A DNA stretch of 64,000 nt from positions 4,583 to 68,582 of the IMG/VR virus record IMGVR_UViG_3300025875_000013. The stretch is one strand, 5' to 3'. The DNA comes from a virus. The notes under the pieces were generated by a model. It did not search any database, had not been told where the DNA came from, and worked only from the letters and a program-made list of their open reading frames with translations. Shown piece by piece: positions 24,693 through 24,827 of this stretch (positions within the stretch are counted from its first letter, which is position 1; each line of letters starts with the position of its first letter). The translations under genes were made by a program, and so were the position numbers.

Positions 24693-24827
24693 TTTACGGA
24701 CAAAGTTAAACAGAGGCTTTTGGACAATTGCTCTACCAACTGAGCTATTAAGGCGTAAGCCCTAAACCAGATTCGAACTGGTGACCCATTGTTTGGATTG
24801 AAGTAACTCTATTTTTAGTACCGTAAA
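24693..24827 (-). ncRNA. YrlA-like Y RNA module Y: circularly permuted tRNA-like domain inside a leader/trailer stem
   Basis: Minus strand order: leader TTTACGG, AAATAGAG, GTTACTTCAAT. Then the 3' half ACAAT-GGGTC-ACCAG-TTCGAAT-CTGGT-TTAGGGC-T, linker TAC, and the 5' half GCCTTAA-TA-GCTC-AGTTGGTA-GAGC-A-ATTGT. Trailer CTCTGTTT then CCGTAAA. Acceptor strands pair 7/7. Anticodon-stem strands ATTGT/ACAAT pair 5/5. Leader and trailer form two helices (TTTACGG/CCGTAAA and AAATAGAG/CTCTGTTT). Confidence 0.6.

What the first reader, a model, noticed from the sequence alone, without database searches (positions are those of the whole stretch)
24693..24827. Module Y: circularly permuted tRNA-like domain (T-arm and 3' acceptor strand precede a matching 5' acceptor strand and D-arm)
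On the minus strand the order is ACAAT-GGGTC-ACCAG-TTCGAAT-CTGGT-TTAGGGC-T, then TAC, then GCCTTAA-TA-GCTC-AGTTGGTA-GAGC-A-ATTGT. The 3' acceptor strand TTAGGGC and the following 5' strand GCCTTAA pair 7/7 (one G-U). The anticodon-stem halves ATTGT/ACAAT pair 5/5. The T-loop TTCGAAT and the D-loop AGTTGGTA are canonical. Yet the T-arm lies 5' of the D-arm, so this cannot be a normal tRNA gene. The two halves are joined by only 3 nt across the acceptor end, exactly as in YrlA tRNA-like domains.
Basis: seen in the sequence. Interest (0 to 1): 0.85.

Follow-up and report, generated by a model that had tools for sequence, protein, structure and literature searches.

The report
Phage Y RNA with tRNA-like head
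This stretch encodes a small non-coding "Y RNA" whose middle folds like a tRNA; it sits in a row of four such RNAs just upstream of a phage copy of the Ro60/Rsr RNA-binding protein, an arrangement already described in bacteria and several phages, so it is a real but largely ordinary example.

Summary
On the minus strand, 24827-24693 reads P1, loop, P2, UUACUUC, a 5-bp stem, GGGUC, T-arm, a closed 7-bp acceptor hairpin (4-nt loop UUAC, not 3 nt), U8 A9, D-arm, A26, then the return strands. It is not chance. A covariance model built only from 49 other loci scores it 85.5 bits (E=5e-18), the best hit in the window, and ignores the two genuine tRNAs. In 173 modules chosen by sequence motifs alone, the acceptor hairpin has >=5 bp in 82% (1.3% when shuffled). 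Near relatives keep every helix through 9 double changes. The element lies 272 nt upstream of, and on the same strand as, a TROVE/vWA Ro60 (Rsr) gene in a tailed-phage genome. It is the second of four Y-type modules, with a real tRNA-Glu between modules 1 and 2. This is the YrlA class of Y RNAs (Chen et al. 2014), already reported in 22 phages. Differences are small: Rfam's YrlA model scores it below its cutoff, as it does all 16 relatives tested, and the putative Rsr-binding motif reads UACUAA instead of UAGCGA, with a compensating change opposite. Expression, Rsr binding and function are inferred.

The parts
24693..24827 (-). Module Y, the complete Y-RNA unit (the finding): P1, 5' loop UACUAA, P2, UUACUUC, P3, variable loop, T-arm, acceptor hairpin, D-arm, P3', P2', 3' loop, P1'
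   Evidence: Sequence; fold; Rfam YrlA 33.2 bits; independent model R1 85.5 bits, E=5e-18
24821..24827 (-). P1 5' strand UUUACGG, pairing with CCGUAAA at 24693-24699
   Evidence: 7 bp; predicted in the MFE fold; scaffold parse
24815..24820 (-). 5' internal-loop motif UACUAA, at the position of UAGCGA in sister modules and of GNCGAA in published YrlAs; presumed Rsr contact site
   Evidence: bulged U1, then pairs 2-8' (95% canonical) and 3-7' (89%) across 44 scaffolds; module Y has C3-G7' where relatives have G3-C7'
24800..24814 (-). P2 5' strand AAAUAGAG (24807-24814, pairs with CUCUGUUU 24708-24715), followed by the conserved UUACUUC (24800-24806; UUAC = the YUAY of Chen et al.)
   Evidence: YUAY described in PMC4201824
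24724..24792 (-). Permuted tRNA-like domain: P3 ACAAU/AUUGU, variable loop GGGUC, T-arm, 7-bp acceptor hairpin with UUAC loop, U8 A9, D-arm, A26
   Evidence: The nucleotides for tRNA tertiary contacts are present (U8-A14, G15-C48, G18G19 with U55C56, U54-A58, G46, A9, A26-G44), read from the sequence
24700..24707 (-). 3' internal-loop strand AACUUUGU, facing UACUAA
24910..25041 (-). Module 1: sister YrlA-type unit with UAGCGA, a V hairpin CGAUUGUUAAUCG and a 6-bp acceptor hairpin
   Evidence: Rfam YrlA 44.8 bits; R1 77.4 bits, E=4e-16
24828..24903 (-). Genuine tRNA-Glu (UUC) embedded between modules 1 and Y; its 3' end abuts P1 of module Y
   Evidence: ARAGORN; Rfam tRNA 54.6 bits
24622..24687 (-). 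Module 3: short Y-type unit (scaffold plus small hairpin, no tRNA-like head; YrlB-like)
   Evidence: counterparts in L001, L009, L272-L277
24490..24615 (-). Module 4: Y-type unit with a divergent tRNA-like head (T-loop UUCAAAU, 5-bp acceptor hairpin, D-arm GGUGUAACGGUAACAC)
   Evidence: R1 25.7 bits, E=2e-4; sequence
24447..24478 (-). Bulged GC-rich hairpin followed by a U-run (terminator-like) between the RNA array and rsr
   Evidence: Read from the sequence; equivalent hairpins in L001, L002, L009 and L272-L277; not flagged by the simple scanner
22994..24421 (-). rsr: Ro60 orthologue, 475 aa counted from ATG 24421
   Evidence: Pfam TROVE E=3.6e-21 plus vWA_Ro60 24.1 bits, below its 27.7 cutoff; PHROG 850 RNA-binding protein E=6e-45; PDB 9KOP/9L5Y E=3.8e-24, 2NVO, 1YVP
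25045..25179 (-). Small conserved ORF (44 aa) at the head of the unit, function unknown
   Evidence: Homologous ORFs in L001-L004 and L008; no Pfam hit

Best explanation
Module Y is one of four phage-encoded Y RNAs of the YrlA type and is the RNA partner of the phage Ro60/Rsr protein encoded 272 nt downstream. Shown: its 5' and 3' ends pair (P1, P2) around a conserved asymmetric loop with a bulged U, and its centre folds as a tRNA lacking an anticodon loop. In that fold the acceptor stem is closed by a 4-nt loop and the 'anticodon stem' (P3) opens into the scaffold. Inferred: the array is transcribed as one precursor, from upstream of the small ORF to the hairpin/U-run before rsr. RNase P and 3'-end processing of the embedded tRNA-Glu then free the 3' end of module 1 and the 5' end of module Y. 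The scaffold loop binds the Rsr ring. The tRNA-like head is recognised by host tRNA-binding proteins (modification enzymes, possibly RNase P or other partners), so the RNA tethers or gates Rsr, as shown for bacterial Y RNAs with PNPase.
For: Structure: R1, built from 49 loci with no window sequence, scores module Y at 85.5 bits, E=5e-18, the top hit in 64 kb; the genuine tRNAs are not recovered (tRNA-Gln region 9.7 bits, E=1.1; no hit on tRNA-Glu). On A1, 96.9% of cells pair, against 35-48% when partners are slid; covariation is 0.733 against 0.172 shuffled (0/500). In 173 modules selected by sequence motifs only, the acceptor hairpin has >=5 bp in 82% against 1.3% shuffled, with all six pair types at most positions. 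P3 has >=4 bp in 31% against 4%, and the Levitt pair covaries G-C 122 / A-U 39. Near relatives L275-L277 (Rsr 78% identical) share the P2 strand AAAUAGAG and a 7-bp acceptor stem with a tetraloop, with 9 double changes and no disruption. Context: the TROVE/vWA gene is on the same strand. R1 hits lie upstream of rsr on the same strand in 14 of about 27 loci retrieved by Rsr homology alone. 145 of 239 pattern-selected loci contain a TROVE gene. The window is a tailed phage. The identical array occurs in two independent assemblies. Literature: the YrlA definition, modification by TruB/DusA and RNase P cleavage of M. smegmatis YrlA are in PMC4201824; phage Ro60 binds upstream Y-like RNAs and host PNPase in PMC12135203.
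Against: There are no expression data, so transcript ends and processing are inferred from geometry. The literal GNCGAA(N)G motif of published YrlAs is absent: module Y has ACUAAA, differing at the G, C and G positions, so Rsr binding of this module is less certain than for its sisters, which carry UAGCGA. The Rfam YrlA score (33.2) is below the gathering score (69). The minimum-free-energy fold does not predict the 4-bp D-stem or P3 in the full-length context. No PNPase, RtcB or RNA-repair gene was recognised next to rsr in this window.
Confidence: 0.8

Rival explanations
1. Module Y keeps the tRNA-like fold but no longer works through Rsr. Its scaffold motif has drifted (UACUAA), and it acts on its own as a tRNA mimic: an RNase P substrate or processing signal within the precursor, or a decoy or sponge for host tRNA-binding or tRNA-cleaving proteins.
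For: UACUAA occurs once among 44 high-confidence scaffolds, where UAGCGA, UGGCGA and UAGUGA dominate. The direct counterparts in L275-L277, L274 and L009 have UAGCGA. A 7-bp acceptor stem is the feature Chen et al. link to RNase P cleavage of M. smegmatis YrlA. The window holds a second, canonical tRNA-like module that could serve Rsr.
Against: The changes preserve the pairing: C3-G7' replaces G3-C7' and A5-U replaces G5-U, which suggests selection on the scaffold helix. P1, P2, UUACUUC and the loop sizes (6 and 8 nt) are intact. Related motifs such as UACUGA (L016, L023) and UAGUAA occur in other rsr-linked modules.
Confidence: 0.12
2. It is the junction of two decayed tandem tRNA genes (the 3' half of one and the 5' half of the next), the known false-positive source for YrlA searches.
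For: Chen et al. warn that dimeric tRNAs can score as YrlA. R1 gives weak hits in tRNA clusters (L023 at 892 and 217, L007 at 251; 21-27 bits). A real tRNA-Glu lies directly upstream.
Against: The two 'halves' pair with each other 7/7 across a 4-nt loop. No D or anticodon arm precedes the T-arm and no anticodon or T-arm follows the D-arm; instead the conserved Y scaffold flanks both sides. The score is 85.5 bits against 21-27 bits for tRNA dimers. Compensatory changes link the two halves.
Confidence: 0.02
3. It is a circularly permuted tRNA gene, as in the red alga Cyanidioschyzon merolae, whose transcript is circularised and re-cut to give a working tRNA. (This comparison is from general knowledge and was not tested here.)
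For: The gene order (3' half before 5' half) and a short linker across the acceptor end resemble permuted tRNA genes.
Against: There is no anticodon loop: P3 opens into about 60 nt of conserved scaffold rather than a 7-nt loop, so no anticodon can be read. The element is tied to rsr in more than a hundred loci. The splicing endonuclease pathway needed for permuted tRNAs is not known in bacteria or their phages.
Confidence: 0.01

Closest known systems
YrlA RNAs of bacteria and mycobacteriophages (Chen et al. 2014, PMC4201824; Rfam RF02553)
   Same: Encoded just upstream of Ro60/Rsr on the same strand. Same 5'/3' terminal stems around an internal loop, YUAY (here UUAC) after P2, then T-arm, closed acceptor-like stem and D-arm in that permuted order. 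Same tRNA tertiary-contact nucleotides, including the covarying 15-48 pair. More than one Y RNA per locus.
   Different: The literal 5' motif GNCGAA(N)G is replaced by UACUAA (sisters: UAGCGA). The Rfam score is below its cutoff. There is no V hairpin, and P3 is a full 5-bp stem. It is part of a four-module array interrupted by a genuine tRNA.
M. smegmatis YrlA
   Same: A 7-bp acceptor-like stem, the feature that makes that RNA an RNase P substrate in vitro and CCA-tailed in vivo.
   Different: RNase P cleavage was not tested here. The loop is UUAC, so there is no encoded C for a CCA end.
Thermus phage phiLo Ro60 with Yrl1/Yrl2 (PMC12135203)
   Same: A phage-encoded Ro60 with Y-like RNAs directly upstream. 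The window's Rsr is closest to this protein among solved structures (E=3.8e-24). Those RNAs bind the phage Ro60 and host PNPase.
   Different: The Yrl RNAs are described as stem-bulge-stem with a CGAA motif. The passages retrieved do not mention a tRNA-like domain.
D. radiodurans Yrn1 and metazoan Y RNAs
   Same: Terminal helix with a bulge as the Ro-binding site, and a variable effector module in the loop. The scaffold inferred here (bulged U, two covarying pairs, asymmetric loop) is of that type.
   Different: Yrn1 has the T-arm and D-like elements in the other orientation. Metazoan Y RNAs have no tRNA-like domain, and their motif is GGUCCGA.

Membership tests
YrlA-like Y RNAs sensu Chen et al. 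2014 | Encoded within 4 kb of a Ro60/TROVE gene and on the same strand | tested here: met
   Module Y ends at 24693 and rsr starts at 24421 on the same strand
YrlA-like Y RNAs sensu Chen et al. 2014 | Conserved T stem-loop resembling a tRNA T-arm | tested here: met
   ACCAG-UUCGAAU-CUGGU pairs 5/5; the T-stem covaries in 173 modules
YrlA-like Y RNAs sensu Chen et al. 2014 | Conserved D stem-loop 3' of the T stem-loop | tested here: met
   GCUC-AGUUGGUA-GAGC is the commonest D-loop in the family. The stem is nearly invariant, so it gives no covariation evidence
YrlA-like Y RNAs sensu Chen et al. 2014 | Acceptor-like stem-loop (AS) between T and D, variable in sequence | tested here: met
   7 bp plus the UUAC loop; >=5 bp in 82% of sequence-selected modules against 1.3% shuffled; all pair types seen
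YrlA-like Y RNAs sensu Chen et al. 2014 | tRNA tertiary-contact nucleotides, including a covarying 15-48 Levitt pair | tested here: met
   G15-C48 in module Y; family counts G-C 122 and A-U 39; the other contacts were read from the sequence
YrlA-like Y RNAs sensu Chen et al. 2014 | YUAY after the second stem | tested here: met
   UUAC at 24803-24806 within the conserved UUACUUC
YrlA-like Y RNAs sensu Chen et al. 2014 | 5' motif GNCGAA(N0-1)G, the putative Rsr contact | tested here: not met
   Module Y has ACUAAA at the equivalent position; its sisters have AGCGAU/A, which keep the NCGA core. Pairing with the 3' loop is preserved by a compensatory C-G. Chen et al. describe this as a conserved feature 'likely involved in Rsr recognition'; their operational criterion was model score plus context
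YrlA-like Y RNAs sensu Chen et al. 2014 | Physical association with Rsr, and tRNA-type modifications (psi55, D) | not testable with these tools
   Requires immunoprecipitation and modification mapping
Rfam RF02553 (YrlA) as curated | Covariance-model score at or above the gathering score (69 bits) | tested here: not met
   33.2 bits for module Y and 44.8 for module 1. The same model at its gathering score also misses all 16 related loci tested, including Streptomyces, Actinomadura and Bradyrhizobium, so the threshold is uninformative for this branch
Canonical tRNA | 5' acceptor, D, anticodon arm, T, 3' acceptor in that order, with a 7-nt anticodon loop | tested here: not met
   Not called by ARAGORN or by the Rfam tRNA model; there is no anticodon loop

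The most novel reading that the evidence does not exclude
The phage carries a toolkit of Y RNAs with different heads on one Rsr-binding scaffold: two distinct full tRNA mimics, one divergent tRNA mimic and one short hairpin, punctuated by a real tRNA. Module Y, with its 7-bp acceptor stem and altered Rsr motif, would be a specialised member that RNase P cleaves or that a host tRNA-targeting enzyme captures. The array would then serve as a counter-defence or tRNA-surveillance device during infection, rather than simply copying the bacterial Rsr/Y RNA/PNPase machine. An RtcB RNA ligase gene next to the array in a close relative (L275/L276) fits a link to tRNA damage.
Probability: 0.12. Interest if true: 0.6.

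Novelty: new member of a known kind. Interest (0 to 1): 0.3.

Why it matters
The result gives a clean, well-delimited example of a phage Y RNA locus: four modules, one embedded tRNA and one Ro60 gene. It also shows that the curated Rfam YrlA model misses this whole branch, which is abundant: more than 7,600 related Rsr proteins in metagenomes, and pattern matches in at least 119 viral contigs and 120 genomes, most of them next to a TROVE gene. The covariation found in the scaffold loop (bulged U plus two pairs) refines where Rsr is likely to bind. The natural variant UACUAA / UUUGU is a ready-made compensatory mutant for testing that. None of this changes the known picture of Ro60/Y RNA biology.

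Tried and rejected
(1) My first regular-expression parser locked onto false T-loop matches and missed the window's own modules; I rewrote it. (2) Because that parser required pairing, I discarded its pairing percentages and re-selected modules by sequence motifs only. (3) A loose scaffold parse mixed registers from distant clades, giving spurious 'motifs' such as TGCGCA and TGAAGA; I restricted it to 44 high-confidence scaffolds. In these, pairs 5-5' and 6-4' showed no signal above shuffles, so only pairs 2-8' and 3-7' are claimed. (4) I considered a V hairpin AUCCA/UGGGU, which RNAfold predicts in the full-length fold. I rejected it in favour of P3 plus a free GGGUC variable loop because P3 covaries in homologous modules and the model aligns all five pairs. 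(5) The promoter/terminator scanner gave no more promoter-like sites than shuffles and missed the bulged terminator hairpin, so transcription signals remain inferred. (6) The small upstream ORF looked ribbon-helix-helix-like by eye but has no Pfam match, and I make no claim about it. (7) Genes flanking rsr gave no Pfam or PHROG hits, so no repair or nuclease partner was found in this window. (8) The large insert in L005-type loci briefly looked RNase P-like, but Rfam finds nothing. (9) The DNA pattern scans are expected to include chance hits in ordinary tRNA genes, so they were used only after filtering.

Full report
OBSERVATION. On the minus strand, 24827-24693 reads as follows:
- UUUACGG (P1)
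- UACUAA (5' loop)
- AAAUAGAG (P2)
- UUACUUC, then AAUCCAA
- ACAAU (P3)
- GGGUC (variable loop)
- ACCAG-UUCGAAU-CUGGU (T-arm)
- UUAGGGC-UUAC-GCCUUAA (closed acceptor hairpin: 7 bp with one U-G, 4-nt loop)
- UA, then GCUC-AGUUGGUA-GAGC (D-arm), then A
- AUUGU (P3'), then CCAAAAGC
- CUCUGUUU (P2')
- AACUUUGU (3' loop)
- CCGUAAA (P1')

The only correction is that the acceptor loop is 4 nt, not 3. ARAGORN and the Rfam tRNA model do not call it, although they do call two genuine tRNAs: tRNA-Gln at 5495-5568 and tRNA-Glu at 24828-24903. RNAfold of the 135 nt gives -36.5 kcal/mol (z=-3.85) and recovers P1, P2, the T-arm and the acceptor hairpin.

SURROUNDINGS. The element is one of four units that share one frame: P1, U-R-S-Y-R-A, P2, UUACUUC, insert, P2', an 8-nt loop, P1'.

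| Unit | Coordinates (minus strand) | Insert |
|---|---|---|
| Module 1 | 25041-24910 | full tRNA-like head with a V hairpin |
| tRNA-Glu (UUC) | 24903-24828 | genuine tRNA, not a module |
| Module Y | 24827-24693 | full tRNA-like head with a 5-bp P3 |
| Module 3 | 24687-24622 | short hairpin only |
| Module 4 | 24615-24490 | divergent tRNA-like head |

A bulged GC hairpin with a U-run (24478-24447) follows the array. After it comes a 475-aa ORF (24421-22994). This ORF matches TROVE (E=3.6e-21) and, below Pfam's cutoff, the Ro60 vWA domain (24.1 bits against 27.7). It also matches PHROG 850. Among solved structures it is closest to the Thermus phage phiLo Ro60, then D. radiodurans Rsr, then Xenopus Ro60. 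A conserved 44-aa ORF (25179-25045) heads the unit. The window is a tailed-phage genome, with large terminase, portal, tape measure and primase/helicase genes. The identical array, tRNA-Glu included, occurs in two independent assemblies (L270, L271), so it is not an assembly artefact.

IS THE STRUCTURE REAL? I used three lines of evidence, none of which draws on window sequence.

(a) Loci retrieved only through Rsr protein similarity (L001-L030, 39-79% identity) carry arrays of two to six modules on the same scaffold directly upstream of rsr.

Of these 239 loci, 145 contain a TROVE gene within the few kilobases fetched. I then selected 173 distinct modules by sequence motifs alone:
- The segment between the T-arm and the D-arm forms at least 5 contiguous pairs from its outer end in 82% of modules, against 1.3% after shuffling.
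- All six standard pair types occur at most positions of that hairpin.
- The T-stem pairs 5/5 in 165 of 173 modules.

The stem at the position of ACAAU/AUUGU has at least 4 bp in 31% of modules, against 4% in a permutation control, with very diverse sequences. The 15-48 Levitt pair covaries, G-C in 122 modules and A-U in 39, as Chen et al. reported.

(c) On an alignment of 49 non-window modules (A1), 96.9% of cells pair, against 35-48% when the partners are slid. Covariation is 0.733 against 0.172 shuffled (0/500). These rows were chosen for having a P3, so only the T and acceptor helices are unbiased in that count.

The model built from A1 (R1) then scored the window:

| Target | Bits | E-value |
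|---|---|---|
| Module Y | 85.5 | 5e-18 (best hit in 64 kb; no non-canonical pair) |
| Module 1 | 77.4 | 4e-16 |
| Module 4 | 25.7 | 2e-4 |
| tRNA-Gln region | 9.7 | 1.1 |
| tRNA-Glu | no hit | - |

The closest counterparts of module Y are in L275-L277 (Rsr 78% identical). They share its P2 strand AAAUAGAG. They have the acceptor stem AUUCUGC-GAAA-GCAGGAU, P3 AAUUU/AAAUU and T-stem AUCGG/CCGAU. That is nine double changes relative to module Y and none that breaks a pair.

WHAT IT IS. The architecture and context are those of the YrlA class of bacterial Y RNAs (Chen et al. 2014, PMC4201824):
- encoded next to Ro60 on the same strand;
- YUAY after the second stem;
- T, acceptor-like and D stem-loops in that order;
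- tRNA tertiary-contact nucleotides.

That paper already lists 22 phages. A 2025 study shows a phage Ro60 binding two upstream Y-like RNAs and host PNPase (PMC12135203). The Rfam YrlA model aligns end to end but scores 33.2 bits (module Y) and 44.8 bits (module 1), below the gathering score of 69. That threshold also misses all 16 related loci I tested, including Streptomyces, Actinomadura and Bradyrhizobium. It therefore reflects a narrow seed alignment, not a real difference.

THE SCAFFOLD. In 44 high-confidence scaffolds, the first loop base (U) is unpaired. Loop position 2 pairs with the last base of the 3' loop in 95% of cases (A-U 23, G-C 18). Position 3 pairs with the second-last base in 89% (G-C 29, A-U 8, C-G 2). 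No shuffle out of 1000 reached either value. The published GNCGAA(N)G motif corresponds to loop positions 2-6 plus the first bases of P2. Module Y is unusual here. It has UACUAA where its sisters and direct counterparts have UAGCGA, and UUUGU where they have UUUCU. This turns G3-C7' into C3-G7' and G5-U into A5-U. The helix geometry is kept, but the bases thought to contact Ro60 differ. This is the one feature in which module Y fails the literal family description, and it is the basis of the main rival explanation.

HOW IT MOST LIKELY WORKS.
- Shown: the fold, the family and the linkage to rsr.
- Inferred from geometry: the four modules and the tRNA are made as one precursor. The tRNA-Glu 3' end abuts P1 of module Y, and its 5' end lies 6 nt after module 1, so RNase P and tRNA 3'-end processing would release the neighbouring Y RNAs. 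A/U-rich 5-6-nt spacers separate the other modules.
- Inferred from the literature: the scaffold binds the Rsr ring, and the tRNA-like head is recognised by tRNA-binding proteins. The RNA would then tether or gate Rsr, as in the Rsr/Y RNA/PNPase complex. The 7-bp acceptor stem is the feature that made M. smegmatis YrlA an RNase P substrate.

RIVALS.
- An Rsr-independent tRNA mimic or decoy (0.12) rests on the altered motif.
- Decayed tandem tRNAs (0.02) are excluded by the mutual complementarity of the two halves, the flanking scaffold and the model score.
- A permuted tRNA gene (0.01) is excluded by the absence of any anticodon loop.
- An attP-type tRNA fragment was considered and dropped for the same reasons as the tandem-tRNA reading.

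VERDICT. This is a new, somewhat divergent member of a known kind, not a new kind. Interest is modest at 0.3. The useful by-products are a clean phage locus, evidence that the curated model under-detects a large branch, and a natural compensatory variant at the putative Rsr site.

Noticed in passing
window 24828-24903 (-): A genuine tRNA-Glu (UUC) is embedded in the Y RNA array, flush with P1 of module Y and 6 nt after module 1. tRNA genes or clusters also adjoin rsr/Y arrays in L007, L017, L023, L099, L195 and L228, which suggests tRNA processing is used to cut out Y RNAs.
   Followed up: partly
window 24490-24615 (-): Module 4 has a different tRNA-like head (T-loop UUCAAAU, 5-bp acceptor hairpin UCCGG-UUU-CCGGA, D-arm GGUGUAACGGUAACAC). 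Its counterpart in L013 lacks the acceptor hairpin altogether. R1 scores it only 25.7 bits.
   Followed up: partly
window 25045-25179 (-): A 44-aa ORF (MTRFGFLIEQKWLDKLEEEKEKYGQSTVSSFIRYIIIKFFDKKD) heads the array and is conserved in L001-L004 and L008. It has no Pfam match. It might be a small regulator, but that is only an impression.
   Followed up: partly
window 25206-25213 (-): TATATTTG lies 27 nt upstream of the small ORF and fits the TAnnTTTG -7 element of Bacteroidota promoters (from memory). L001 has TAAATTTG in the same place. This may be the promoter and a hint at the host.
   Followed up: no
window 24447-24478 (-): A terminator-like hairpin with a U-run lies between the Y RNA array and rsr and is conserved in relatives. 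This implies the RNAs and the protein are expressed at different levels, or by read-through.
   Followed up: no
L005:3697-3923, L006:3661-3925, L015:2198-2416, L018:800-1016, L020:2140-2413, L030:2203-2419: In large phage contigs (L005 436 kb, L006 195 kb), the second Y-scaffold module next to rsr carries a conserved 210-270-nt insert with blocks such as GGUGAAAAAGUCCGG and ACUAUCGGCA. It has no Rfam match. RNAalifold keeps P1/P2, but five sequences give little covariation. It may be an undescribed Y RNA effector domain.
   Followed up: partly
L016:49-123, L023:1163-1237: Here the Y scaffold encloses a tRNA-like insert in normal order (D-arm, anticodon arm with GUG, T-arm) that ARAGORN calls tRNA-His. 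This is the Yrn1-like orientation rather than the YrlA one.
   Followed up: no
L275:1-710, L276:1-710: An RtcB RNA ligase gene lies directly upstream of the Y RNA array and rsr in a phage-like contig whose Rsr is 78% identical to the window's. This echoes the bacterial rsr-yrlBA-rtcBA operon.
   Followed up: no
Streptomyces phages Annadreamy, Faust, Limpid, Blueeyedbeauty and others (hits H11-H21): These phages have unannotated 62-66-nt matches (about 82% identity) to the T-arm/acceptor/D-arm core of module 1. They are likely unannotated YrlA-type RNAs in cultured phages.
   Followed up: no
16 related loci: Rfam RF02553 (YrlA) at its gathering score detects none of the modules in 16 loci, including cellular genomes. 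It also yields a false 'tRNA' spanning two modules in L014 (389-527). The curated model appears too narrow for this widespread branch.
   Followed up: partly
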